Shown here: positions 370 to 37,769 of the stretch, in pieces | Position numbering within the stretch: the stretch's first letter is position 1 | Layout of the letters: each line of letters begins with the position of its first letter | UHGV virus genome: UHGV-1370141 | DNA from: a virus | Direction: 5' to 3' (one strand) | DNA length: 64,000 nucleotides | Notes under the pieces: model-generated | Database searches by the model: none | The model's input: the letters and a program-made list of their open reading frames with translations, nothing else | Told to the model about the DNA's origin: nothing | Translations under genes and position numbers: made by a program

Positions 370-1257
370 ATGAAAAACGATTTACATTTAGCATATAACA
401 CTACATTTAACCATCCTTTGCAAATCTCTTCTCCAGATTCTGTACGTTATCATTTAAGTGATGACGTTCGTTTAATTACCATGCTACCTGGCGAATGGCC
501 GAAATTACGGGGCCGTGATATCGTCAACCGTGATAATATCTCCGTAGAAAATACTTTTACAATTCGTGATCTGCCGGTCGAACGTGTGATTGTTTTTACA
601 GGAGATGATGAACTTTATGGAATGATTGTTGATGGTAAATACTTCTTCAGTGACGGGGTTTTAAATGCTGGTAGCGATTTAGAACTTTTTTTTACACCGT
701 TTGCTGAGCTTGACGCTAAGCCTATGGTTCGCAGATGGTGGAGTCCAGATTACATGGGGGCTTTTCCGTATTACTATACTCTTGTTGGTAAGGATGTTGA
801 AGAGTATTCCGATAGTGAACCATACACCAACATTGAAGGTTATCAGGACCTCGGAATTGCACATTTAGCTGATTTAATGGCTTATAGCTATAAGTTCGAA
901 TGGATTCGTGAACGTTCTGTTTGGAAAGCCATTACTGACGACCATGTTATTACGAAACGTATTCGTAAACCATGGATGCAACATCTTGTTCAAATACGAT
1001 TTGGCCAAAGTCCAGTAACCGAGGCTGATATTTCTAAACTTGTTAGTTTTTTATTGTCTAAGGTTGAATTGACTGATGAAGAAGCCGAAGCTGTTAAGCC
1101 GATGCTTGATCGTATTGTGACCTTAGAAGACCTCAAAAGAATGAATAGTCGTTATAACGATCTTAATCGGTTGCTAGAGGCGTATAATTCGACAAAGGTT
1201 TTAAAACCTGGAGTCAATTTCGACGAAGATCCGTTGTTCGCTATCGACTATAATTAA
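370..1257 (+). CDS. hypothetical protein, accessory gene of the radical SAM cluster
   Basis: 295-aa ORF with a GAGG RBS before the ATG; sits between the peptides and the radical SAM genes; no recognisable motif. Confidence 0.55.
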   Translation: MKNDLHLAYNTTFNHPLQISSPDSVRYHLSDDVRLITMLPGEWPKLRGRDIVNRDNISVENTFTIRDLPVERVIVFTGDDELYGMIVDGKYFFSDGVLNAGSDLELFFTPFAELDAKPMVRRWWSPDYMGAFPYYYTLVGKDVEEYSDSEPYTNIEGYQDLGIAHLADLMAYSYKFEWIRERSVWKAITDDHVITKRIRKPWMQHLVQIRFGQSPVTEADISKLVSFLLSKVELTDEEAEAVKPMLDRIVTLEDLKRMNSRYNDLNRLLEAYNSTKVLKPGVNFDEDPLFAIDYN

Positions 1258-1264
1258 ATAATTA

Positions 1265-2203
1265 ATGGAGTCACCTGCAATGGCGACCAATGCGGAACCA
1301 AAATTATCAGATCAGTTATTTGACAATCCAACAATATTAGCCGTTATTACTACATCCAAATGTAATCTGGACTGTAGTTTCTGCGGCGGAGCCTATTACA
1401 TGAATCGTGAAGATTCTTCTCGAGAGTTTCAACGTGACCGAATTATGGAGGCGTTAGAAGCTAACCCAACAATCACCGAGATTCAATGGACGGGTGGTGA
1501 GCCTTTGTTAGCCACTCGTAAAATTGAGGCGTTTGTTGACGAGTTAAAAGTAATTCGTCCAGAGCTCAAACATCAGTTATATACCAACGGTTTAAAGATG
1601 CGTAAAACGCATCTCCCGTTGTTAAAACAATTTGATAATGTGTATGTTAGCATCGACGGGTTTGAGTTGTCTGAACGCCCTTTTAAGCGTTTTATTAACG
1701 ATGGTTGCTACGAAGCTTTAGAAGTAATGCATGAGCTTGAAAATGTTCATACATGGGCCGTTTTAACTCGAGAACAGTTGGGTAACAAACGGTGGCATGA
1801 AGACATTATTGAGCTTCATAATGCGATCTATCACTACGGTTATCGTACCATGACGTTGCTGTTAGACGCGAATATGCCAAAACCGTTATCTCCCGATCAC
1901 GTTATGAACTTTATTTACGGGTATTTTAGAATTCAGGAAAATATAGAAAGACTGAATGTTTCCAACTCGAAAAGGTGTGACTATGTCGTAAGCAAAGTTT
2001 TTGATGGTGGGTGTAACGTATGCAGCAATAGTTTATGGTTAAGAGCAGATGGAACCGAATATCAGTTGCAAAATGCCCCGAGATTATTAGAATCGGGATG
2101 TAACCAATTAGCTTGTTCCATCGGGTTAGAAGCCTACGAGTATATTCGACGAGTGGTTATGGCCAACCGTAATAGTGGAGTATTAAATGAACCAAGAAAA
2201 TAA
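1265..2203 (+). CDS. radical SAM enzyme
   Basis: CNLDCSFC (CX3CX2C) motif near the N-terminus and a GGEPLL glycine-rich SAM-binding motif; its end overlaps the start of the next radical SAM gene. Confidence 0.8.
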   Translation: MESPAMATNAEPKLSDQLFDNPTILAVITTSKCNLDCSFCGGAYYMNREDSSREFQRDRIMEALEANPTITEIQWTGGEPLLATRKIEAFVDELKVIRPELKHQLYTNGLKMRKTHLPLLKQFDNVYVSIDGFELSERPFKRFINDGCYEALEVMHELENVHTWAVLTREQLGNKRWHEDIIELHNAIYHYGYRTMTLLLDANMPKPLSPDHVMNFIYGYFRIQENIERLNVSNSKRCDYVVSKVFDGGCNVCSNSLWLRADGTEYQLQNAPRLLESGCNQLACSIGLEAYEYIRRVVMANRNSGVLNEPRK

Positions 2204-3509
2204 TTACCCGAAACAGTTGACTTACCAGATTGTTACAAACTTGTCGTGTAATTTGGACTGTGAGTATTGTTACGAGCGTAAATATCCCCGCAATAACAAA
2301 GCAGCAGATATTGTAGATTTTCTTCATGCCTGTTTCGAGCGTGATAAAGATTTACCAAACGTAGAAGTCGTCATTGACATTATCGGCGGCGAGCCGTTTA
2401 TGCAGCCTAAGCTTCTAATGGCCGCTTTCGAAACAGCCGAGCAGTTGTGTGAAGAACATAAACGCCCGTTTATGTTTAGTATCTCTACTAATGGGACATT
2501 ATTAGATAGGCCGTTGAACAGGGAAATTATTGAACGTTGGAAGGACAGACTTTCTATCGGGGTGTCTATTGATGGGTTACCTGAGTCGCACGATAAGTAC
2601 CGTATTTTTACAACGAGTCGCGAAGGTTCTTACGAGGCCGCTGTACGTGGTTACAATTATCTAAAAGAAGTAGGTATCGCGGAGCTTGGGGTTAAAGCGA
2701 CATTTACTTTGGAAACGCTCCCACATTATGCGGCGGGTATGAAATCCCTAATCGATTTGGCTGGAGGTGGAACCATTTCTGGTAACGTAACCTTCGAAGA
2801 CATTATGCCACGGAGTATGGCTACGTCGATAGCGCTACAAATGATGGATGTAGTCGATTATTGGGTTGAAAAGGGTTTACACACCAACCCACGTAATACC
2901 CTATCACATATCATCCCGGAAGGGTTAGATTTCGACACTATCTGGGAACCGAACTGGCGGGATCAGCTACTTTACAACGATACTGTACGTTTAAACCCGG
3001 AACGCTTGCGTCCGTTCTGCGGGACATTAACTCACATGACTTGTTTAGGGTTTGACAGGAAGATTTTCGGTTGTAACCGTTTCATGTCGACTGTAACGTC
3101 ACGTTCTGCGGTATTTGAGTTAGTCGGTCGTGAGTTTGTTAGCTTAGACGGTGGGAAACTGCTGGAAGAGATTCAGACGCAATACACCAACTATCCTGAG
3201 ACGTGCTTAGGTTGTCCGATGAAACACGCTTGTGGTAGCTGTGCAGCAGCTTCCTACGAGAATGGGGAAGGGACGTTAGAAGACCGTAAAGCGTATCACG
3301 CTGAACGTCGTCAATGTGGTTGGACAACTGCAAAATTAATGGTCGCGGAATACTGGAAACAGAAGATGGGTACAACATCTGTGAAGGATTTCCACGATAA
3401 TAGCATGTGTTACTGCCCTCGCTGTGTACGTGAACGTGCCCAAAAAGAAAAACAATTGAGAGAAGCCAAAGATGAAGCCAATTCTGATCCACAATATTAC
3501 GAAGCGTAA
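2187..3509 (+). CDS. radical SAM enzyme with SPASM/twitch-like C-terminal Cys cluster (peptide-maturase-like)
   Basis: CNLDCEYC (CX3CX2C) and GGEPFM motifs; the C-terminal region holds extra Cys clusters (CLGCPMKHACGSC, CYCPRC) as in SPASM-domain maturases. Confidence 0.8.
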   Translation: MNQENNYPKQLTYQIVTNLSCNLDCEYCYERKYPRNNKAADIVDFLHACFERDKDLPNVEVVIDIIGGEPFMQPKLLMAAFETAEQLCEEHKRPFMFSISTNGTLLDRPLNREIIERWKDRLSIGVSIDGLPESHDKYRIFTTSREGSYEAAVRGYNYLKEVGIAELGVKATFTLETLPHYAAGMKSLIDLAGGGTISGNVTFEDIMPRSMATSIALQMMDVVDYWVEKGLHTNPRNTLSHIIPEGLDFDTIWEPNWRDQLLYNDTVRLNPERLRPFCGTLTHMTCLGFDRKIFGCNRFMSTVTSRSAVFELVGREFVSLDGGKLLEEIQTQYTNYPETCLGCPMKHACGSCAAASYENGEGTLEDRKAYHAERRQCGWTTAKLMVAEYWKQKMGTTSVKDFHDNSMCYCPRCVRERAQKEKQLREAKDEANSDPQYYEA

Positions 3510-4044
3510 ATTCCGTTTTCTGGAAAAGTTTTTAGAAACTACGAAACTGTTTGGCTGTTATGTGCAGATTAACGGCGAAGATTTCAATGACGATGTTAAG
3601 CGTTTATTAATTCGTCACGGAATCACCGTTGTTATCCCGATGTATTGTACAGAACTTACCGAACTTTCTGTGGCCGAAATCGAGAAACAAAATCCAGGCT
3701 TTGAACAGCGCGTGCTGGAATTTCCTAAACATAAAATCGTTCTTTTACGCCGCGCTTTGCAAGAGCCGAGCGTTGAATCTGTTGCTGCTCTAGGTTTATC
3801 GTTTCCTGGTGTGACAATTTATGTCACACGAAACCCAGAGTCCACCATCGATGGTTTTTACGATGAAAGGGAAACTTTTCATAGTTTAGTTTATCCCGAG
3901 CTTACAGAAGACGAACGTCAAGGACTACATATTGACTGGGACTCAAATTTTGATAGTAAGTTTCGTAAAATCGATTTTGATCTTCTGATCGAGCTGGGTT
4001 TAATTAAAGGAGAAGACGAATGCCTGCTCTTGACAAAAGCTTAA
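3472..4044 (+). CDS. hypothetical protein
   Basis: 190-aa ORF overlapping the end of the SPASM gene, same strand; no motif recognised. Confidence 0.5.
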   Translation: MKPILIHNITKRKFRFLEKFLETTKLFGCYVQINGEDFNDDVKRLLIRHGITVVIPMYCTELTELSVAEIEKQNPGFEQRVLEFPKHKIVLLRRALQEPSVESVAALGLSFPGVTIYVTRNPESTIDGFYDERETFHSLVYPELTEDERQGLHIDWDSNFDSKFRKIDFDLLIELGLIKGEDECLLLTKA

Positions 4045-4694
4045 TAAACGAAGATATTCGCGCCAGATTTTTTAGCCGACTTTCCCCAATTGATCGCCAC
4101 GGAAACTTTTTGGGTCATATAGGTACTGAAGATCGCGGCAGAACGGGTTTTTGTACAATGCTTCATTACAAACTACTCGATGGCATGTCCGATGAAGACG
4201 CGTTAGATCAAATGCGTAGTTACAATATGTCAGATATTGAAGCAAATTTCACCCTGAAAAAAGCAAAAGAGTTCATTTCAGATGTATTGGAGATAGATCT
4301 GGATGAAATTCGAAGTAACGTTCGTTCAACAGCACGATATATTTATTTAGATGTTCAAAAGATCATGAAGGCGTTGGAGTCGCGTTACGAAGCAGAACGT
4401 TACGAACCAATTCAGCTGAATGATCGTCATTTTCAGGCTGATGCAATCTCCCGACAAATGTTAGGGCAATATATCCAATCTGAAACTGCGCCAGAATATT
4501 GGTTGGATACCGCCAATACGCGTTTAGAACCCTTTACATTAGAAGAATGTAAGGAACTATTGTCCGAGATCGTAAAACGTGATCAGAAACTGCATGGACA
4601 AATGACCGCGCAGAAAAAAGAGCTTCGCCTCTTAGCTGAACAGCGTGACTACGACACTATCCGTGCACTTGCACTGGAAATGGGATTAGAATAA
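4020..4694 (+). CDS. hypothetical protein
   Basis: 224-aa ORF, last gene of the plus-strand cluster, followed by a strong terminator hairpin. Confidence 0.5.
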   Translation: MPALDKSLINEDIRARFFSRLSPIDRHGNFLGHIGTEDRGRTGFCTMLHYKLLDGMSDEDALDQMRSYNMSDIEANFTLKKAKEFISDVLEIDLDEIRSNVRSTARYIYLDVQKIMKALESRYEAERYEPIQLNDRHFQADAISRQMLGQYIQSETAPEYWLDTANTRLEPFTLEECKELLSEIVKRDQKLHGQMTAQKKELRLLAEQRDYDTIRALALEMGLE

Positions 4695-4698
4695 AAAA

Positions 4699-4742
4699 TA
4701 CCTACCTCCGTAAAGGAGGTAGGTAAACTTATTATTTTTTTG
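4699..4742. terminator. bidirectional rho-independent terminator
   Basis: Inverted repeat tacctacctcc-gtaaa-ggaggtaggta flanked by an A-run upstream and a T-run downstream, between convergent genes ending at 4694 (+) and 4764 (-). Confidence 0.7.
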
Positions 4743-4763
4743 TTATAGTAGTTGACTTAGCGG

Positions 4764-5294
4764 TTAAGCAGTAAAACCGTCCAATTCACCGTTGGTGGTG
4801 GCCAGGTCAATACGATTATCGACAACCTTCGGTGTAATTACGAAAGTTGCCATTACACCCGGTTTATAACGGAGGTTCTGTTCAGTAACGGTGCACGTCA
4901 CGGTACGCAGAGTGACGTTTTCATGTTCGTCTTTCTGGTCTTCGGTGCTGTACACAACGTCACCTGGCGCGATAGCGTCGTCAGGTTTTACTTTGTTGAT
5001 GTAATATTGTAACCAAGCGCGGAGTTCGTTTTCTTGAACCCAGCGAGACAGATCATCAGTTAGTTCAATCCGTCCTACAACACCTGGCTCCAGACGATCG
5101 TAATGCAGTTCGATTGCACCTTTGAAATTCTCAGAACCTGGTAGTGCAGTCATGGTAACTTTGGTATTCTTACTTTCGCCTTCCAGCGCAGTAGGGAGAC
5201 CAAAGGACACTTCTTTATCAGTAATCTGATGTGGTAGCTCAGTGTTAGCAGCATTATAAAGCGCGACCAACATCATCTGGTTAGTAGCGGCCAT
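4764..5294 (-). CDS. hypothetical protein, probably abundant virion protein
   Basis: 176-aa ORF with codon usage that looks strongly biased; C-terminus ...GELDGFTA is shared with the upstream paralog. Confidence 0.55.
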   Translation of the reverse strand: MAATNQMMLVALYNAANTELPHQITDKEVSFGLPTALEGESKNTKVTMTALPGSENFKGAIELHYDRLEPGVVGRIELTDDLSRWVQENELRAWLQYYINKVKPDDAIAPGDVVYSTEDQKDEHENVTLRTVTCTVTEQNLRYKPGVMATFVITPKVVDNRIDLATTNGELDGFTA

Positions 5295-5343
5295 TATCTT
5301 AGGTCCTTAATAGAACAAGTTAGAGAAATATCGGGGGAGGTCA

Positions 5344-5353
5344 CCCCCCCCCC
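5344..5353. repeat. homopolymeric C10/G10 tract in conserved TCACC-Cn-GATT context
   Basis: Ten consecutive C inside a G/C hairpin about 50 nt upstream of the start of 4764..5294. Confidence 0.6.
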
Positions 5354-5365
5354 GATTTAACTTAC

Positions 5366-5938
5366 TTAGCCACCGACACCCGGCGCAGTGAAGCCATCAA
5401 GTTCACCTTCCAGACCGCCCAGTGCTACCTTCTCAGGAGCTGGGTTGGAATAAGTGAAAGTAGCAATAGTACCCGCCAGGAATTTAATGTGGCCATCGTT
5501 TACTTTGACAGTGTAAACTTTAGCACCGCTGTCGCCTTCGGATTTAACGATAGTGAGTTCGCTCTCTGCAAACGCGTCATCGACATAACCTTTAGTAACC
5601 ATTTCTTTGTTCAGTTTGGTTACAATGGCAGAGTTTTCCAGATCGAGACTACCAGCTTGTTCGTAAGCTTTAGCACCGATCAGGTCTTGGGATGCCAGAC
5701 GGATATAATGGAATTCTTTCTCGCCTTTGAAGTTCTGGCTTTCTGCCTTGGCGGTCAGTGTAATTTTGGTGTTACGACCAGCGTCTCCGCTGTGCGCTTC
5801 GACAGCACCAAAATCGACATCACCAACCGTCAGATTAGAAGCGGTTGCAGAGTTTTTAGCAATTACAGCTTCGATGAGCTGTTGTTTGAAGGCTTTAGCC
5901 ATCTTTTTTACCTCGTAAGTGGTAGGGGTGGATTGCAT
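5366..5938 (-). CDS. hypothetical protein, paralog of 4764..5294
   Basis: 190-aa ORF ending ...LEGELDGFTAPGVGG; similar central NFKG..HY.RL block; biased codons. Confidence 0.55.
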   Translation of the reverse strand: MQSTPTTYEVKKMAKAFKQQLIEAVIAKNSATASNLTVGDVDFGAVEAHSGDAGRNTKITLTAKAESQNFKGEKEFHYIRLASQDLIGAKAYEQAGSLDLENSAIVTKLNKEMVTKGYVDDAFAESELTIVKSEGDSGAKVYTVKVNDGHIKFLAGTIATFTYSNPAPEKVALGGLEGELDGFTAPGVGG

Positions 5939-6040
5939 AAGAAAGTTATTTTAGACATTTCCTAAAATATAGATATGACGGTTGGCAGTAGGCGCTAACC
6001 TGAAAAAATAATTTTTCTTAATTTTAATAAGGGTGAGTTT

Positions 6041-6520
6041 ATGCTAAAACGCATTCTCGTGGTCGTTGCTTTTGTAATGACGTTGGCAGGTTGTGCTATT
6101 CAGCCGAACGCAGAAGGTCAGTTCTCCACCGTACCTGTTGACCAACATGATATGGTCATTTACACCTGTACAGGTGCTTCTCAAGAATTCGTCGATTTTA
6201 AACCGGTACCGTCTAGCCTAAAACTGATGCCCCTTTCGGTGTTAGTCATGGATACAGGGGCGAATTGGGTCGCTACATGGGACGAAGGTAAAATCGAATC
6301 TCCGCAACTTTATAAAGACCTGTTAGGTAAGGTGGACGGTAACTTAAACGTTGTTACCGGTGAGCGCTATTACCGTGTAAACGGGTTACTGTCAAAAACT
6401 CCAACGTTTGCGTATTCTACCATCAACTACAAAACAGGTGAAGGTAAAGGTGTAACGTTCTTCAGATGTCACGAAGGTAGCATTCCGGATACCGGCACTA
6501 TGCTGCACCCGGTAGAATAA
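6041..6520 (+). CDS. putative lipoprotein
   Basis: N-terminus MLKRILVVVAFVMTLAGC has a signal peptide and an LAGC lipobox; lone plus-strand gene with its own terminator. Confidence 0.6.
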   Translation: MLKRILVVVAFVMTLAGCAIQPNAEGQFSTVPVDQHDMVIYTCTGASQEFVDFKPVPSSLKLMPLSVLVMDTGANWVATWDEGKIESPQLYKDLLGKVDGNLNVVTGERYYRVNGLLSKTPTFAYSTINYKTGEGKGVTFFRCHEGSIPDTGTMLHPVE

Positions 6521-6525
6521 TAAAT

Positions 6526-6560
6526 ACCCTCCTGCTTAGCAGGAGGGTAGGTTTATTTTG
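6526..6560 (+). terminator. rho-independent terminator
   Basis: Hairpin accctcctgc-ttag-caggagggt followed by gtttattttg, directly after the lipoprotein stop codon. Confidence 0.7.
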
Positions 6561-6640
6561 TCCGTAGAACGCGCTAGAACGCGTTCTAAGACGGTTTATA
6601 CAAAATAAGGTACAATCATCCTAAGTTTCGGTTTACGCGC

Positions 6641-7156
6641 TTAGATTTTAACTAAGGCGCTCCAATCGATAGGGCTTTGTTTCACGACTTTCGCAGTACC
6701 GCGATTCGGTGACCAGAACGTGATATTCGGTTGGTTACGAACGTCGATATGCAACCAACTGATGTCGCATTCGATAAAGTGAATAAACGGAAACTCATCA
6801 GGATTAGCGGCAATATAATCGTGGACTTGTTTTACCGTTGAATCTAACAGTGTCGCGTCGAACGCATTACCGAACTTGTGCTGACTCCCTGAATCGGAAT
6901 AGAGTTGTAACGCACGTTGTTTATAGTTACCGCCCTTAGGCTTTTCTTGATTGATGAAAAAGTCTAAGGTTCTTAGGCCACGCTGTTGCGCAGCAGACGA
7001 GTTAATCACCATTCTGCCGAAACGGTTACGAATCTGTTGCAGCGAAATCATTAACAACGGGTTCATAAACCGAATTGCAGAATCACCGTATTTGGCGATG
7101 TACGATTGCGGTACTAACTCTTTGAGTTTAAAGTTACTCGGATTTGGATGAAACAT
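6641..7156 (-). CDS. peptidase M15 family (VanY-like D,D- or L,D-peptidase) cell-wall hydrolase
   Basis: SQHKFGNAFD matches the SxHxxGxAxD zinc-binding signature of M15 peptidases; 171 aa. Confidence 0.6.
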   Translation of the reverse strand: MFHPNPSNFKLKELVPQSYIAKYGDSAIRFMNPLLMISLQQIRNRFGRMVINSSAAQQRGLRTLDFFINQEKPKGGNYKQRALQLYSDSGSQHKFGNAFDATLLDSTVKQVHDYIAANPDEFPFIHFIECDISWLHIDVRNQPNITFWSPNRGTAKVVKQSPIDWSALVKI

Positions 7157-7808
7157 CTTCCCTCCCAGACAGAAAAGCCCGTTTGATGTTCAGGTATTTG
7201 ACATTAACGGGACAACCTGTGGTGATATCAACACGTTCGTGGTCAGGAATAGCAGGCTCCTTAAACTCACGAACGAACAAATAGTTTCGATTGTAATCTA
7301 ACGTACGGTAATCGTTAGTGGTATAAGACGGCTTCGCGTTAGGGTCTACGTAAGCATCCCAACCGAACCCCGCCACGGCTTTATAAAACGTTTGGCAGAT
7401 ATACGGTGAGATTTCCAACGACTGCATAATACGCAGGAATGTTAAGTCAGAGAACTCTTTATCGATAATACGCGAAACGTTACCACCCGGTGTCATGGGA
7501 TAGCTACGCTCCGTGTTACATTTTTGATAGAGTAAGTCGTGAATGCAGGCCGCAGGTGCCCACGGTCCGTCAGGATGGAAAATTCCCTGGAGGTGTTCAG
7601 GAATTGACGCTAAATCGGTAACGAACCCTTTCGGTGCTGTTAACCACAGTTGCGTGTCAGGCAATACACCCGTTAAATAAACCGCACGGTCTAAGTGTAC
7701 GTGGTCGTGATAAATCTCACGTAACGTAAACGGATAATGGTAATCCTCCGTTAATACAAACCACTTATTGTCTAAACGTTTATATTGAAGCTTCTCCATT
7801 ACCCACAC
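7134..7808 (-). CDS. hypothetical protein (DUF1353-like)
   Basis: 224-aa ORF containing FVTDLASIP...HD..Y, which resembles the DUF1353 signature; the family assignment is from memory. Confidence 0.45.
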   Translation of the reverse strand: MWVMEKLQYKRLDNKWFVLTEDYHYPFTLREIYHDHVHLDRAVYLTGVLPDTQLWLTAPKGFVTDLASIPEHLQGIFHPDGPWAPAACIHDLLYQKCNTERSYPMTPGGNVSRIIDKEFSDLTFLRIMQSLEISPYICQTFYKAVAGFGWDAYVDPNAKPSYTTNDYRTLDYNRNYLFVREFKEPAIPDHERVDITTGCPVNVKYLNIKRAFLSGREDVSSKSE

Positions 7809-7915
7809 CTTTCCTTACAAAAACCAGAAGAACTCTTGCCCACGCTTTTCGTCTTTACGTTTTCGACCAGACGTTAACGCTTTCCACAATAACGCTAAGA
7901 GTTTAGCAAACCAGT

Positions 7916-8506
7916 TCATTTTACTAACCCCGCTTTTACCGCATAATCTGCCATTTCTCTGAAGACGCGGCCGTACCAACCGTAGGTGTATTTCTCGTTT
8001 CTCTTACGTTTTTCGGAGATTTCCGTGTAGTAAGTTACTTGGTGCGAGATTAACGCAAAGATTAAAATGCTCAACCCTTCATCTTTACGATATTTCAGGT
8101 AGGCGTTCAACGCACCCAGTGTCTTAGGACCCATACCGCCGTCGGTGTCAATATCTGCGTAAAGTTTCCCTTCGTTATTTAAAACGTTGAGAATACGTTG
8201 TAACGATTTCACACAGTTAGCACGCCCTGCGTTAATACCAAAATCAAACATCCGGTCTGCGAGTAACGGTGAGATAGCGAAAATCTCATCAAGTTTGAGC
8301 TTCTTCCACCAACCGCGATCGTAAATATCAAACGCTTGTGCACGGGTGAGGTCTTTCATTTTCCCTGTGTAGCCGTATTCGCGTGCAGTAGTTAAAGTTA
8401 CACCGTGACAGGTTTCTCCACCTTTGTCGTCAGGGTCGTTGACGTACCCGCCTTCTAAATCCGTTTTGGATTCAATAATACCTTCTTTAGTCCAACGTTC
8501 AGCCAT
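7916..8506 (-). CDS. GH108-family lysozyme with peptidoglycan-binding domain (endolysin-like)
   Basis: N-terminal EGGYVNDPDDKGGETCHGVT matches the glycoside hydrolase 108 signature; the C-terminal region resembles PG_binding_3. Confidence 0.7.
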   Translation of the reverse strand: MAERWTKEGIIESKTDLEGGYVNDPDDKGGETCHGVTLTTAREYGYTGKMKDLTRAQAFDIYDRGWWKKLKLDEIFAISPLLADRMFDFGINAGRANCVKSLQRILNVLNNEGKLYADIDTDGGMGPKTLGALNAYLKYRKDEGLSILIFALISHQVTYYTEISEKRKRNEKYTYGWYGRVFREMADYAVKAGLVK

Positions 8507-8569: not shown

Positions 8570-9049
8570 TTATTTTTTCTTCTTAGCGCGTGATGGCTTA
8601 GCTGGCGGTGTTTCAACAGCCGGTTTACGTGCAACACGCACTGTAAAACCACCAACCCAGGTCAGACACTCAGGACGGAAGAAAATACCGTGTTCGATTG
8701 CGCTACCGTCCAACGGTAACTCACCAACCTGTTCTACCCATACATCGTCTTCTGTAAGGGTTAGGCTATACTGTTCGTTAATTACGGGCAGTAGGTCAGC
8801 GGTAGTCGTTGCAGACTCCACTAACAGTTTCGGTAATACGTTCAGGAAATACAAACCTGCGTCAATGCGGTTATACTGGAACGTTTGTTCGTTAGTGTAA
8901 CCGAGATTCTTAATTGACGCAACTGTGATTTCGGTATTGTACGTACCGGTGGTTACGACCGGGTCACCCAGCGTGACTTTGGTGGTGTCGAACTCAGCGT
9001 CTGGGTTAGCCTTTTTAATAAGGTCGAAGATAGTTTCTTGATTGGTCAT
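8570..9049 (-). CDS. hypothetical protein
   Basis: 159-aa ORF in the minus-strand block, lysine-rich C-terminus; no motif. Confidence 0.5.
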   Translation of the reverse strand: MTNQETIFDLIKKANPDAEFDTTKVTLGDPVVTTGTYNTEITVASIKNLGYTNEQTFQYNRIDAGLYFLNVLPKLLVESATTTADLLPVINEQYSLTLTEDDVWVEQVGELPLDGSAIEHGIFFRPECLTWVGGFTVRVARKPAVETPPAKPSRAKKKK

Positions 9050-9062
9050 TACTGTAATCCTC

Positions 9063-9911
9063 TTAATCTAAGAATCCCGGTAAGACCGGATTAGTCTGCG
9101 CTAATTCAATCTTCGACTTCGGACGATCGGTGCCGTTAAAGTGGATTAACAGATTACCGGTCAGGTTAGAACACAGCGGGCTGAGCGTCAGCACCAACAC
9201 ACGCGTGAACTTCGTATTTGCGCCTTCGTAACCTGCGGTTGGACCATCGTAAATAATCTTCGCACCATACAGGTTGTTAGCCGCGTTCTTAGGTACACTT
9301 ACCCATTTCTCATCAACGACGTTAGCCAGTTTAGTGGCTAACTCAGCCAGGTCGACGGTGTCGTTGATAGTAATCGGGTCAAGGTAATCTTTTTCTGCGG
9401 TGAAATCAATCGGGTGAGAATAAACCGCAGCGTTACCTTTCTTAGTAGACGGATACTCTACCAGATTCTCTAATTGAGTAACTGGTAACAGTTCAGTCAG
9501 GTCAATAGGATCACGCAGCGTAAGTGTTACTACACCGCACCACTCGTAAGATTTCTCGTTAGCGGTAAGCTGATGGGTTTCACCTTCAACTTTTGCGTCA
9601 ACGATATCCGAGGGTAAAATATTTAGGTTGTATTTTGCGTTAATCGCATTAAGCAAATCCGATGCGGTTACCACACTGTCGTTACCGAACACCAACTCAC
9701 CGGTTAGGTAGTCAGGTAAATTACGACGGTGGTAAGTCACGGTTAAAGTAGTAGACTCATCGCCTTTGAGTTTAGAGGTCAGAACCACCTGGGTATCAAC
9801 CCCAGTACCGGTAGGTTCTCCGATATCAACATCACTGAAAGTCAACGGTGGACTAATATTGTTTTCAGTGTTGATGAGTTTTAGCAGTTTCTGTTTTGAC
9901 GTAAGAGACAT
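9063..9911 (-). CDS. hypothetical protein
   Basis: 282-aa ORF, tightly spaced with the downstream gene; no motif. Confidence 0.5.
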   Translation of the reverse strand: MSLTSKQKLLKLINTENNISPPLTFSDVDIGEPTGTGVDTQVVLTSKLKGDESTTLTVTYHRRNLPDYLTGELVFGNDSVVTASDLLNAINAKYNLNILPSDIVDAKVEGETHQLTANEKSYEWCGVVTLTLRDPIDLTELLPVTQLENLVEYPSTKKGNAAVYSHPIDFTAEKDYLDPITINDTVDLAELATKLANVVDEKWVSVPKNAANNLYGAKIIYDGPTAGYEGANTKFTRVLVLTLSPLCSNLTGNLLIHFNGTDRPKSKIELAQTNPVLPGFLD

Positions 9912-13258: not shown

Positions 13259-13299
13259 GTGAGAGCTTTCGTACTCTCACCTAAGTAATATATATCTGA
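13259..13299 (-). promoter_or_regulatory. conserved promoter-like motif plus 5' hairpin (copy 1)
   Basis: Hairpin gtgagag..ctctcac followed by ctaagtaatatatatctga, upstream of the gene starting at 13228; same architecture recurs at 16799-16844 and 37721-37769. Confidence 0.5.
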
Positions 13300-16798: not shown

Positions 16799-16844
16799 GG
16801 AGTGAACGTAATTTTCACTCTCCCCTAGGTAATATATATCTGAG
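16799..16844 (-). promoter_or_regulatory. conserved promoter-like motif plus 5' hairpin (copy 2)
   Basis: Hairpin gagtgaa..ttcactc followed by ctaggtaatatatatctgag; located between the terminator at 16858-16884 and the gene start at 16751. Confidence 0.5.
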
Positions 16845-27967: not shown

Positions 27968-28342
27968 TTATTCGGTTAATTCTCCACACAACACAACGTC
28001 GATACCAAACATCATTCCCACTTCTTGAAGTTTGTTCGCCAGTAAGTGACGATGACAAAACTTACCTGCGGGACAATAACACATCAAAACCAAATCATCG
28101 TGTCTGAGTAATGACACTAAAACTTCGGCGTTGGTATCTAACAGTCGTTCGAGCTTATATAAATACTTTATCGTGTACTCACGTTCAGCGACAGTGTCCT
28201 TGGCAGAGTTTTTATACGCCATTAAGAAATCCCAGTCTGGGGCGAGTTCCTTTCTCCCCGATTTGACTGTAATATCCACTGCGTGAAATCCTTTCTGCTT
28301 AGCTAACCGCCACTTAGCGAGTTGTAACGTCCAGATACGCAT
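27968..28342 (-). CDS. hypothetical protein (DUF488-like Cys motif)
   Basis: 124 aa with CYCPAGKFCHRH, reminiscent of the DUF488 CxC...CHR signature; family assignment from memory. Confidence 0.4.
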   Translation of the reverse strand: MRIWTLQLAKWRLAKQKGFHAVDITVKSGRKELAPDWDFLMAYKNSAKDTVAEREYTIKYLYKLERLLDTNAEVLVSLLRHDDLVLMCYCPAGKFCHRHLLANKLQEVGMMFGIDVVLCGELTE

Positions 28343-28539
28343 TAGGAACGGGTCTGCGATTCAGCCATCAGCGCACAACTTTTCACAGCCTGTGCATGAA
28401 GTTCTGTACCCGGTGTGTAATCCTTTATACAATCCTGATACAATTCGCTTTTCTTTTCTAAAACACGATTGTCACACTCGGCACTTGCTAGTGCCCCTGC
28501 GATAAGGATAAAAACTAGAATCGGCAACCAAATTTTCAT
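28342..28539 (-). CDS. small secreted protein
   Basis: 65 aa; N-terminal signal-peptide-like MKIWLPILVFILIAGALASA; three Cys. Confidence 0.4.
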   Translation of the reverse strand: MKIWLPILVFILIAGALASAECDNRVLEKKSELYQDCIKDYTPGTELHAQAVKSCALMAESQTRS

Positions 28540-28748
28540 TGCCCACCTCCCATTCGTTTAGCGTATTCCGTACATGCCATTACTAATTCAGCATAACGTG
28601 GGTTATCGACAGTGGTACCTGACATACATTCACGATAAAGGGACTCTTTACGCGATTCGTCAGACGTCTTAACGTAGAACATCAGCATCGTTACAATCAG
28701 CGCAGTTGAAACAATTGCTGAGATGATATATCCGTCATTTATTTTCAT
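28536..28748 (-). CDS. small membrane protein
   Basis: 70 aa; one hydrophobic helix (IISAIVSTALIVTMLMFYV); Cys pattern similar to 28342..28539. Confidence 0.4.
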   Translation of the reverse strand: MKINDGYIISAIVSTALIVTMLMFYVKTSDESRKESLYRECMSGTTVDNPRYAELVMACTEYAKRMGGGQ

Positions 28749-37720: not shown

Positions 37721-37769
37721 GTCGTAAAAGAGATTACGATGTAATCTCACTAAGGTAATATATATCTGA
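37721..37769 (-). promoter_or_regulatory. conserved promoter-like motif plus 5' hairpin (copy 3)
   Basis: Hairpin gagattac-gat-gtaatctc followed by ctaaggtaatatatatctgag; located between the tmk terminator and the HTH gene start. Confidence 0.5.

What the first reader, a model, noticed from the sequence alone, without database searches (positions are those of the whole stretch)
6041..6520. Lone opposite-strand lipoprotein gene with its own terminator (moron-like)
A 159-aa protein with signal peptide and LAGC lipobox is encoded on the plus strand inside a long minus-strand region and ends in a strong terminator. Such autonomous lipoprotein genes in phages often act in superinfection exclusion, receptor masking or as spanin components.
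Basis: partly seen in the sequence, partly recalled or inferred. Interest (0 to 1): 0.45.

Follow-up and report, generated by a model that had tools for sequence, protein, structure and literature searches.

The report
Conserved jumbo-phage outer-membrane lipoprotein gene
This is a real, self-contained gene for an outer-membrane lipoprotein that SPN3US/Goslar-type giant phages keep among their tail-fibre genes; its function is untested, and my best guess is that it alters the infected cell's envelope to keep further phages out.

Summary
Window 6041-6520 (+) encodes a 159-aa protein with a canonical lipoprotein signal (MLKRILVVVAFVMTLAG|C). It is the only plus-strand gene between 4764 and 51534 and the only convincing lipobox ORF in the window. 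A strong bidirectional terminator follows it (6525-6549, -22.7 kcal/mol, z -5.8).

The window is an SPN3US-like nucleus-forming jumbo phage. The protein belongs to PHROG 9559 (unknown function), which includes SPN3US gp159, Asesino gp174 and Goslar gp88. The family is narrow: 55 phage records and 14 hits among 1.84 billion representatives.

24 of 25 members keep the lipobox. All keep two further cysteines, and none has Asp at +2, so the outer membrane is the expected destination. AlphaFold gives a small all-beta barrel (pLDDT 80.5) with no specific structural relative.

Gene order was rearranged repeatedly, but the gene stays beside tail genes with a DUF7941 N-terminal domain. The endolysin block moves away from it. 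A sister genus lacks the gene.

A spanin role is disfavoured, and MliC-type homology is not supported. A receptor-masking or superinfection-exclusion role is the best guess (about 0.35), resting on gene position only. A conserved TATGAC motif suggests late-type transcription, which does not fit the T5 Llp model. Overall this is an ordinary, already catalogued gene of unknown function.

The parts
5974..5977 (+). TATG motif (ATATGAC at 5973-5979). Candidate late-type promoter and transcription start, with G5977 as the predicted +1.
   Evidence: TATGAC lies upstream of the start codon in six relatives: the window, SPN3US, Asesino, Kwan, ChrisDB and SPAsTU. Spacing from the motif to the start codon is about 35-65 nt (61 nt in the window), and the intergenic sequences are otherwise diverged. 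phiKZ late promoters have the consensus TATG, with G as the start site for the non-virion RNA polymerase (PMC4666361). Function here is inferred, not shown.
5980..6000 (+). Hairpin at the 5' end of the predicted transcript: 7-bp stem 5980-5986 / 5994-6000, with a 7-nt loop.
   Evidence: The fold shows the stem in the MFE and centroid structures. A stem-loop starts within a few bases of TATG, with different sequences, in SPN3US and Asesino, and by eye in Kwan, ChrisDB and SPAsTU. The z-score of the whole leader is not significant (-1.0).
6030..6037 (+). Ribosome-binding site AGGGTGAG
   Evidence: Read directly from the sequence.
6041..6091 (+). Signal peptide, residues 1-17 (MLKRILVVVAFVMTLAG), ending in the lipobox L-A-G before Cys18
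   Evidence: The lipobox leucine (L15) and Cys18 are invariant in alignment A1.
6092..6520 (+). Mature lipoprotein (Cys18 to Glu159, plus the stop codon). Predicted all-beta barrel, with conserved Cys43 and Cys143.
   Evidence: The AlphaFold2 model has pLDDT 80.5 and pTM 0.69, with ten strands. C43 and C143 are invariant in A1 and A2. The PHROG 9559 match has E 1.7e-71.
6525..6549 (.). Bidirectional intrinsic terminator. It is shared with the converging minus-strand genes.
   Evidence: A structurally equivalent hairpin lies downstream of the gene in all eight loci inspected.
5366..5938 (-). Divergently transcribed neighbour: a small protein with a DUF7941 N-terminal domain. It is the most consistent partner gene. 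The true start is probably M13 at 5902, which has a GAGG Shine-Dalgarno.
   Evidence: Pfam DUF7941 E 1.8e-07 and phrog_4862. The ortholog (37-46% identity) sits immediately upstream and divergent in SPN3US, Asesino, pEa_SNUABM_43, Kwan, ChrisDB and SPAsTU.
4764..5294 (-). Second small DUF7941 paralog of the same array
   Evidence: Copy number is 1-4 among relatives.

Best explanation
The gene is a self-contained transcription unit. It has a conserved TATGAC start motif, a 5' hairpin, a ribosome-binding site, the coding sequence and a strong bidirectional terminator. It lies in an SPN3US/Goslar-type nucleus-forming jumbo phage.

The product is exported by Sec and lipidated at Cys18. [quoted passage not shown] There it would present a roughly 15-kDa beta-barrel to the periplasm. 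Two invariant cysteines lie in strands of that barrel and could form a disulfide.

The gene is dispensable in sister phages. It always travels with the variable tail-fibre/receptor-binding genes rather than with the lysis genes. I therefore think it most likely works like T5 Llp, Rtp45 or Cor. It would bind the periplasmic side of an envelope component used for phage entry. That would stop further phages, or released progeny, from adsorbing to or injecting into an already infected cell or its debris.

What is shown: the gene, its signals, the family and its conservation, and its genomic associations. What is inferred: lipidation, outer-membrane location, the disulfide, promoter class and timing, and the whole exclusion function.
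For: - Canonical lipoprotein signal, kept in 24 of 25 members. Ala, Val or Ser at +2, never Asp.
- Two further invariant cysteines, lying in predicted strands of a confident beta model.
- Own terminator and a conserved upstream TATGAC.
- The gene is accessory. It is absent at the syntenic site in EarlPhillipIV, where the small DUF7941 genes, M15 and DUF1353 are all present.
- The association with tail genes is conserved through rearrangements:
  - Divergent pairing with the small DUF7941 ortholog in seven SPN3US-like genomes.
  - In Machinavirus the endolysin/DUF1353 block lies on the other side, while the lipoprotein stays between DUF7941 genes.
  - In Goslar it directly follows a P1 S-like tail fibre gene and its assembly gene, and precedes by two genes a DUF7941 + TIM-barrel tail protein.
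  - In metagenomic relatives of 27-31% identity it sits between DUF7941+LRR and DUF7941+DUF285 proteins, or at the end of a DUF7941 gene run.
- DUF7941 proteins are phiKZ gp127-like (PDB 9xqd hit, E 2.4e-05).
- Precedent: Llp and Rtp45 are periplasmic outer-membrane lipoproteins of lytic phages that block the receptor from the periplasmic side (PMC9586334; PMC12685063).
Against: - There is no sequence similarity to any known exclusion lipoprotein. tblastn over 50,697 phage records finds only the 55 jumbo-phage records. PADLOC gives no hit.
- The mature protein is about twice the size of Llp or Rtp45 (about 6 kDa).
- It is no more variable than its neighbours (56% identity to SPN3US, against 36-43% for the adjacent small DUF7941 proteins). 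It therefore does not track the fast-evolving receptor-binding genes as a receptor-specific blocker might.
- The conserved TATG motif resembles phiKZ late promoters, whereas Llp is made shortly after infection (bioRxiv 10.64898/2026.03.26.714494).
- SPN3US is reported to use flagella (PMC11428620), so the target is not obvious.
- No expression or phenotype data could be retrieved.
Confidence: 0.35

Rival explanations
1. Lysis accessory. The lipoprotein would be an atypical outer-membrane spanin subunit, or another factor that weakens the outer membrane or times its disruption at the end of infection.
For: - It is an outer-membrane-type lipoprotein.
- In the window, SPN3US, SPAsTU, Asesino and Kwan it converges on a block holding the GH108/PG_binding_3 endolysin, DUF1353 and, in some, an M15-like peptidase.
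- The TATG-type motif would fit late expression.
- No other spanin candidate was seen in this 64 kb.
Against: - No adjacent, overlapping or embedded gene has an N-terminal transmembrane segment.
- It has no C-terminal transmembrane segment, so it is not a u-spanin.
- The mature domain is 141-142 aa, about 6% proline, and is predicted to be a folded barrel. Typical o-spanins are short and proline-rich (own knowledge).
- There is no spanin hit in Pfam or PHROGs.
- The endolysin block is separated from it in Machinavirus and absent from its neighbourhood in Goslar and locus L014.
- The sister phage EarlPhillipIV lacks the gene.
- A small cationic amphipathic ORF directly after the endolysin (7815-7919, minus strand) is a more natural lysis partner.
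Confidence: 0.12
2. Tethered inhibitor of a peptidoglycan hydrolase. It would be MliC/PliC/PhiA-like in fold and T4 Spackle-like in logic. It would neutralise the tail-borne wall-degrading enzyme of superinfecting phages, or restrain the phage's own M15-like peptidase or endolysin in the periplasm.
For: - The BFVD hits include an RB49 protein named as having a lysozyme-inhibitor LprI-like domain (E 1.3e-03).
- Like E. coli MliC, it is a lipoprotein with one cysteine early and one near the C-terminus.
- The gene converges on an M15-like peptidase gene in the window, SPN3US, SPAsTU and L018, and lies three genes away in L016.
- The SPN3US ortholog of that peptidase, gp158, is a virion protein that is not in the head (PMC5105663).
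Against: - No PF09864 hit for any of 17 members, even at E <= 10.
- Profile-profile alignment to an MliC alignment covers only the signal peptide and the first cysteine (probability 52%).
- The distributions do not match. The lipoprotein occurs where the M15 search found no match (Asesino, Kwan, Machinavirus, Goslar). M15 occurs without the lipoprotein (EarlPhillipIV, Phobos, CR5, many Vibrio phages).
Confidence: 0.1
3. Some other envelope function unrelated to exclusion or lysis. Examples are stabilising or remodelling the outer membrane during the long jumbo-phage cycle, binding a lipid or small ligand in the barrel, or counteracting an envelope-based host defence.
For: - The fold class (small beta-barrel) is shared with lipid- and ligand-binding lipoproteins and lipocalin-like proteins.
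- The strongly conserved motifs (D71-x-G73, SPQLY, G-x-RYYR, G133-x-G135) across hosts of different genera suggest a conserved target rather than a strain-specific receptor.
- The family has no annotation anywhere.
Against: This does not explain the persistent placement among tail-fibre genes. No specific ligand-binding family is matched.
Confidence: 0.3

Closest known systems
T5 Llp (and the analogous Rtp45 of phage Rtp): superinfection-exclusion lipoproteins of lytic siphophages
   Same: - Phage-encoded lipoprotein aimed at the periplasmic leaflet of the outer membrane.
- Encoded by a virulent phage.
- Sits in the receptor-binding gene neighbourhood. For llp, lying next to the pb5 gene is my own knowledge.
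- Non-essential accessory gene.
- The proposed logic is the same: binding an envelope protein from the periplasmic side (PMC9586334; PMC12685063).
   Different: - No detectable sequence similarity.
- Mature size is about 15 kDa and a predicted barrel, against about 6 kDa.
- The host phage is a nucleus-forming jumbo myophage.
- The upstream motif resembles a late promoter, whereas Llp is made shortly after infection.
- The target is unknown and no phenotype is known.
Cor (phi80, N15, HK022, T1-type phages)
   Same: Outer-membrane lipoprotein encoded beside tail-fibre genes. It acts by inactivating the receptor (own knowledge).
   Different: No sequence similarity. Cor is best known from temperate phages, expressed from the prophage, and targets FhuA (own knowledge).
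Rz1-type o-spanins
   Same: Lipoprotein signal with outer-membrane sorting. In some relatives it lies within a few genes of the endolysin.
   Different: No i-spanin partner gene. Long, folded, proline-poor mature domain. Linkage to the lysis genes is not conserved. No family hit.
MliC/PliC/PhiA lysozyme inhibitors (Pfam PF09864)
   Different: No sequence or profile similarity beyond the signal peptide. The mature part is about 50 residues longer. The structural scores are no better than for unrelated barrels.
Lambda-type morons (bor, lom)
   Same: Autonomous unit with its own terminator and a probable promoter of its own. Placed in the tail-fibre region. Present in some relatives and absent in others.
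   Different: The phage is virulent. Base composition is not deviant. The gene is old and vertically conserved within the clade. The promoter motif is of the phage-polymerase type rather than sigma-70. The sigma-70-like site at 5982-6009 is weak, and I did not find an equivalent by eye in SPN3US or SPAsTU.

Membership tests
Bacterial lipoprotein precursors (Lgt/LspA substrates) | Basic n-region, uncharged hydrophobic core, lipobox [LVI][ASTVI][GAS]C, with the Cys at position 15-35 | tested here: met
   MLKR-ILVVVAFVMT-LAG-C18. The PS51257-type pattern matches the window protein and 24 of 25 family members. L15 and C18 are invariant in A1.
Bacterial lipoprotein precursors (Lgt/LspA substrates) | Actual diacylglyceryl modification and signal peptidase II cleavage | not testable with these tools
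   Needs globomycin sensitivity, palmitate labelling or mass spectrometry.
Outer-membrane-sorted lipoproteins (Lol pathway, Enterobacterales rule) | No Asp at position +2 after the lipidated Cys | tested here: met
   The +2 residue is Ala in most members, Val in one and Ser in three. It is never Asp. The rule itself is established knowledge.
Two-component spanin, o-spanin subunit (Rz1-like) | Partner i-spanin gene (N-terminal transmembrane segment, periplasmic coiled coil) that is adjacent, overlapping or embedding | tested here: not met
   The neighbours 5366-5938 and 6641-7156 have no hydrophobic segment. No overlapping ORF has one.
Two-component spanin, o-spanin subunit (Rz1-like) | Short, proline-rich, largely unstructured mature domain | tested here: not met
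   141-142 residues with 9 prolines (about 6%). Ten predicted strands and pLDDT 80.5.
Two-component spanin, o-spanin subunit (Rz1-like) | Conserved linkage to the holin/endolysin cassette | tested here: not met
   The endolysin lies on the far side of the DUF7941 genes in pEa_SNUABM_43 and ChrisDB, and is not in the Goslar or L014 neighbourhoods.
Unimolecular spanin (T1 gp11-like) | Lipoprotein signal plus a C-terminal transmembrane segment | tested here: not met
   The only hydrophobic segment is the signal peptide.
Receptor-blocking exclusion lipoproteins (Llp, Rtp45, Cor) | Sequence homology to a characterised member | tested here: not met
   tblastn against 50,697 phage records returns only 55 SPN3US/Goslar-type jumbo phages. 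The only PHROG hit is 9559, of unknown function.
Receptor-blocking exclusion lipoproteins (Llp, Rtp45, Cor) | Gene located with the receptor-binding / tail-fibre genes | tested here: met
   It is flanked by genes with a DUF7941 N-terminal domain, or by tail-fibre genes, in all lineages with enough context. The neighbours in L016 have no annotation.
Receptor-blocking exclusion lipoproteins (Llp, Rtp45, Cor) | Expression early in infection (or from the prophage) | tested here: inconclusive
   Only a conserved TATGAC motif is available, and it resembles phiKZ late promoters. The time-course data for SPN3US and Goslar were not retrievable.
Receptor-blocking exclusion lipoproteins (Llp, Rtp45, Cor) | Binds the receptor and reduces adsorption or plating of the same or related phages | not testable with these tools
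   Needs expression in the host plus plating and adsorption assays.
MliC/PliC lysozyme inhibitors (PF09864) | Match to the family profile | tested here: not met
   No PF09864 hit for 17 members at E <= 10. hhalign against an MliC alignment covers only the signal peptide region.
MliC/PliC lysozyme inhibitors (PF09864) | Eight-stranded beta-barrel fold specifically similar to MliC/PliC | tested here: inconclusive
Moron (autonomous accessory unit in a phage late region) | Own promoter and terminator | tested here: met
   The terminator is shown. The promoter is inferred from a conserved motif.
Moron (autonomous accessory unit in a phage late region) | Deviant base composition or recent acquisition | tested here: not met
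   GC is 0.42-0.45 across the gene against 0.43-0.47 in the flanks. The gene is conserved across several genera.
Moron (autonomous accessory unit in a phage late region) | Present in some close relatives and absent in others at the same site | tested here: met
   It is absent between the small DUF7941 genes and the structural genes of EarlPhillipIV.

The most novel reading that the evidence does not exclude
The family would be the first envelope-level exclusion factor described for nucleus-forming jumbo phages (Chimalliviridae). It would be a roughly 15-kDa beta-barrel tethered to the outer membrane and unrelated to Llp, Cor or Rtp45. It would block entry through a component conserved across Escherichia, Salmonella and Erwinia. 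That component could be a conserved envelope protein used as the terminal receptor, or the incoming tail's wall-degrading enzyme (a lipid-anchored analogue of T4 Spackle). A 2026 review of jumbo-phage biology held in the library does not contain the words superinfection, lipoprotein or spanin.
Probability: 0.3. Interest if true: 0.55.

Novelty: new member of a known kind. Interest (0 to 1): 0.3.

Why it matters
Very little has been published on how nucleus-forming jumbo phages deal with the cell envelope after entry, that is, on exclusion of competitors, loss of progeny to debris, and outer-membrane disruption at lysis. This gene is a compact, conserved and dispensable candidate for such a role. 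It is present in two laboratory models, SPN3US (gp159) and Goslar (gp88), so it can be tested directly by plasmid expression and by antisense or amber knockouts. Finding its target could also point to the still unknown terminal receptor or entry route of these phages. As it stands, it is an uncharacterised family already present in databases, so its present value is as a lead and not a discovery.

Tried and rejected
Searches that gave nothing useful:
- Megablast of 4700-7900 against the phage collection found no match. The window phage is related to SPN3US only at the protein level.
- Pfam, NCBIfam and PADLOC gave nothing for the protein. The NCBIfam PRK11627 and PDB TrwH matches cover only the signal peptide.
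- The PDB sequence search found nothing meaningful.
- Foldseek against the PDB found nothing at E <= 0.001. The AlphaFold-database library was unavailable.

MliC idea:
- I built an MliC alignment from E. coli mliC and its homologs. The profile comparison aligned only the signal peptide.
- That alignment is shallow (at least 74% identity), so this is a weak negative.

'DUF2846' label:
- The pEa_SNUABM_43 homolog carries this label in GenBank. It was not reproduced at E <= 1.

M15-peptidase partner idea:
- Rejected as an obligatory link, because the two genes occur independently.

Sigma-70 promoter:
- The site at 5982-6009 scores only 9 of 12. I found no equivalent by eye in SPN3US or SPAsTU.

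TATG enrichment:
- TATG alone is not enriched in upstream gaps of the window. By my count, about 9 of 24 gaps have one, which is close to chance.
- The promoter call therefore rests on cross-phage conservation of TATGAC.

Literature and retrieval failures:
- The SPN3US infection proteome paper (PMC6384053) and the Goslar RNA-seq tables are not held.
- The SPN3US virion paper does not mention gp159 in the text or in the supplements held.

Full report

Yes. Window 6041-6520 (+) is an ATG-initiated ORF of 159 codons, preceded by AGGGTGAG at 6030-6037.

The N-terminus is MLKRILVVVAFVMTLAG|CAIQ. It has two basic residues, an uncharged hydrophobic core, the lipobox L-A-G-C and Cys18. It satisfies the PROSITE-type lipoprotein rule that I coded.

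A scan of all ORFs of at least 35 aa found one other pattern match. That is a 37-aa ORF inside a 905-aa gene, so this is the only convincing lipoprotein gene in the 64 kb.

Every other long ORF from 4764 to 51534 is on the minus strand.

The terminator at 6525-6549 has an 11-bp stem followed by a T-run. It folds at -22.7 kcal/mol (z -5.8, 0 of 200 shuffles as good). It folds equally well on the minus strand. It therefore ends both the lipoprotein gene and the converging minus-strand genes.

**2. What genome is this, and what family?**

Megablast finds nothing. tblastn finds the protein in 55 phage records, all jumbo phages of about 200-250 kb that infect Salmonella, Escherichia, Erwinia or Proteus. 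They include:
- SPN3US, where the gene is SPN3US_0159;
- Asesino gp174, Kwan gp173 and ChrisDB gp174;
- more distantly, Goslar gp88.

The protein matches PHROG 9559, 'unknown function', at E 1.7e-71. It matches nothing in Pfam, NCBIfam or PADLOC.

The family is narrow. There are 17 clusters in the 5.8-billion-protein collection. A profile search of 1.84 billion representatives gave only 14 hits. Two of those are scrambled sequences, and one very long protein matched in 21 short stretches, probably through low-complexity sequence.

Some sources already name the protein 'Lipoprotein'. I found no paper that discusses it.

**3. Conserved features of the protein**

- In the 17-sequence alignment, L15 and C18 (lipobox), C43 and C143 are invariant.
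- In the broader alignment, which reaches down to 27% identity, the invariant residues are C18, C43, C143, G73, R109, Y111, R112, S126, G133 and G135.
- 24 of 25 members pass the lipobox rule. The exception has LIAC at position 12.
- Every member has exactly two further cysteines after the lipobox Cys. The +2 residue is never Asp. By the Enterobacterales sorting rule (established knowledge), this predicts transfer to the outer membrane.
- AlphaFold2 on the family alignment gives an all-beta model (pLDDT 80.5, pTM 0.69) with ten strands. C43 and C143 each lie in a predicted strand. A disulfide between them, in the oxidising periplasm, is my inference.
- Some Erwinia-phage members carry a Pro/Ala/Thr-rich C-terminal tail.

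**4. Fold comparison**

BFVD returns family members and a handful of small uncharacterised phage proteins. One RB49 protein among them is named for a lysozyme-inhibitor LprI-like domain.

The PhiA and PliC hits suggested a lysozyme-inhibitor relationship, so I tested it. No member hits PF09864 even at E <= 10. Profile-profile comparison with an MliC alignment aligns only the signal peptide and the first cysteine. Homology to MliC/PliC is therefore not supported, and the fold does not identify a function.

**5. Genomic context, the most informative evidence**

In the window the gene order is as follows:

| Coordinates | Strand | Content |
|---|---|---|
| 370-4694 | + | Unannotated ORF, two radical-SAM orthologs (by similarity to the annotated SPN3US genes), a hypothetical gene, DUF4376 |
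| 4764-5938 | - | Two small DUF7941 paralogs |
| 6041-6520 | + | Lipoprotein |
| 6641-7156 | - | M15-like peptidase |
| 7134-7808 | - | DUF1353 |
| 7815-7919 | - | Small ORF |
| 7916-8506 | - | GH108 + PG_binding_3 endolysin |
| 8570-9911 | - | Two DUF7941 proteins, the start of a long run of minus-strand genes |

Relatives show repeated rearrangement:
- SPN3US, SPAsTU and Asesino keep this order, with 1-4 small DUF7941 copies. The M15 gene is missing in Asesino.
- In Kwan the flanks are arranged differently.
- In Machinavirus (pEa_SNUABM_43, ChrisDB) the endolysin/DUF1353 block lies on the other side and on the other strand. The lipoprotein remains between the small DUF7941 genes and the annotated virion structural genes.
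- In Goslar it directly follows a P1 S-like tail-fibre gene and its assembly gene. Two genes further on is a DUF7941 + NCTSP TIM-barrel protein.
- In a metagenomic relative of 27% identity it sits between DUF7941+LRR and DUF7941+DUF285 proteins.
- In another relative it ends a run of DUF7941 genes and converges on M15/DUF1353.

The constant neighbour is therefore the DUF7941 gene set. In seven SPN3US-like genomes it is specifically the ortholog of 5366-5938, transcribed divergently.

DUF7941 proteins carry variable C-terminal domains (LRR, DUF285, TIM barrel). One window member matches chain PHIKZ127 of PDB entry 9xqd. I read them as modular tail or baseplate-periphery proteins. That reading is an inference.

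The small paralogs evolve fast (26-46% identity). The lipoprotein is 56-60% identical to its SPN3US and Asesino orthologs, which is within the range of its neighbours.

**6. The gene is accessory**

EarlPhillipIV (Derbicusvirus) has the radical-SAM, DUF4376, DUF1353, M15 and two small DUF7941 genes. It has no lipoprotein gene at the site. EarlPhillipIV, Phobos and CR5 are not among the 55 records.

Base composition is not deviant. The gene is therefore old in this clade but dispensable.

**7. Transcription signals**

Upstream of the start codon, six relatives share TATGAC in otherwise diverged spacers. Spacing from the motif to the start codon is about 35-65 nt (61 nt in the window). A short hairpin follows within a few bases. 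In the window, SPN3US and Asesino the stem is 6-7 bp with a 7-nt loop.

phiKZ late promoters have the consensus TATG, with G as the start site for the non-virion polymerase (PMC4666361). I therefore infer a phage-polymerase promoter of the late type, with +1 at G5977.

There are caveats:
- TATG alone is not enriched in the window's upstream gaps (my count).
- WTATGR and TATGAC are depleted overall.
- No transcript data could be retrieved.

A different motif, CAGATATATATTACYTAGG, occurs three times elsewhere in the window and not here.

**8. Weighing the functions**

*Spanin.* Disfavoured.
- There is no transmembrane partner gene and no C-terminal anchor.
- The mature domain is long, folded and proline-poor.
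- There is no family hit.
- Linkage to the lysis genes is not conserved.
- A sister genus lacks the gene.

*Peptidoglycan-hydrolase inhibitor.* A minority possibility.
- Fold similarity is weak and sequence similarity is absent.
- The lipoprotein and the M15-like peptidase occur independently.
- The idea is attractive in one respect. The SPN3US ortholog of that peptidase, gp158, is a virion protein that is not in the head (PMC5105663).

*Exclusion or receptor masking.* The best fit to the gene's position and its dispensability. It has precedents in Llp and Rtp45, which bind their receptors from the periplasmic side (PMC9586334; PMC12685063).

Against it:
- There is no homology to those proteins.
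- The protein is about twice their size.
- The promoter motif looks late.
- The protein is conserved across hosts rather than varying with the tail fibres.
- SPN3US is reported to use flagella (PMC11428620).

I put exclusion at about 0.35, an unidentified envelope function at about 0.3, a lysis role at 0.12 and a hydrolase inhibitor at 0.1.

**9. Verdict**

- The family is already catalogued without a function.
- The useful new points are its fixed association with the DUF7941 tail-gene set through several rearrangements, its absence from a sister genus, and its conserved start motif and terminator.
- Interest is modest until a phenotype is shown. It can be tested directly in SPN3US and Goslar.

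Noticed in passing
window 6565-6588: Between the terminator and the stop of the M15-like gene there is a direct repeat, TAGAACGCG (6565-6573 and 6575-6583). The second copy forms the perfect 14-bp palindrome TAGAACGCGTTCTA (6575-6588). The identical 14-mer occurs at the same place in Asesino, and related sequences occur in SPN3US, Kwan and SPAsTU. It is absent in Machinavirus, where the lysis block has moved. It could be a protein-binding site or a 3'-UTR element of the converging genes.
   Followed up: partly
window 7815-7919 (-): A 34-aa ORF (MNWFAKLLALLWKALTSGRKRKDEKRGQEFFWFL) starts at an ATG that overlaps the endolysin stop codon. It looks amphipathic and strongly cationic. Small ORFs are annotated at the same position in Asesino, Kwan, ChrisDB, pEa_SNUABM_43 and SPAsTU. 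It may be a membrane-active lysis peptide, which would make a spanin unnecessary.
   Followed up: no
window 6641-7156 (-): A 171-aa protein carries LAS/M15-type zinc-peptidase motifs (SQHKFGNAFD ... WLHID). It has a sub-threshold Peptidase_M15_3 hit (E 0.032) and matches PHROG 894 'endolysin'. It is 79% identical to SPN3US gp158, which is reported as a virion protein not in the head. Its distribution is patchy: Seoulvirus, Derbicusvirus, CR5 and many Vibrio phages. This would be a second wall-degrading enzyme beside the GH108 endolysin, possibly tail-borne.
   Followed up: partly
window 4764-5938 (-); L013 2612-4875: There is an array of small (about 170-190 aa) paralogs that carry only the N-terminal part of DUF7941 and end in a G-E-L-D-G-F-T-A-type motif. 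The array has 1 copy in SPN3US, 2 in the window, Asesino and pEa_SNUABM_43, 3 in ChrisDB and 4 in SPAsTU. Identities are 26-46%. The pattern fits fast-evolving host-range genes.
   Followed up: partly
window 5900-5939 (-): The listed start of ORF 5366-5938 is probably not the real one. M13 (ATG at 5902-5900) has a GAGG Shine-Dalgarno at 5914-5911, and the PHROG alignment starts at residue 13. The upstream ATG is part of a TATG (5939-5936, minus strand). That could be the start motif of this divergent gene, about 35 bp from the lipoprotein's TATG.
   Followed up: no
window 13280-13298, 16824-16842, 37750-37768 (-): The 19-nt motif CAGATATATATTACYTAGG occurs three times on the coding strand, against none expected in shuffles. 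Two copies lie in intergenic gaps just after terminator-like hairpins and upstream of genes. It is probably a second promoter class of this phage, distinct from the TATG type.
   Followed up: partly
window 28342-28748 (-): Two overlapping small ORFs (65 and 70 aa) each have an N-terminal hydrophobic segment. Their C-terminal halves are similar and each contain two cysteines. They look like paralogous small membrane or secreted proteins inside the minus-strand gene run.
   Followed up: no
whole window: WTATGR (73 found, about 115 expected) and TATGAC (15 found, about 31 expected) are markedly under-represented on both strands. This could reflect selection against spurious start sites for the phage polymerase, or simply codon usage.
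   Followed up: no
P0001 (relative of window 6041-6520): A 97%-identical protein stands for 308 member sequences on 23 contigs. One source names it from a Salmonella enterica serovar Agona record, and the longest contig is 227 kb. This suggests that close relatives of this jumbo phage turn up in sequence assemblies of bacterial isolates, through a carrier state or contamination.
   Followed up: no
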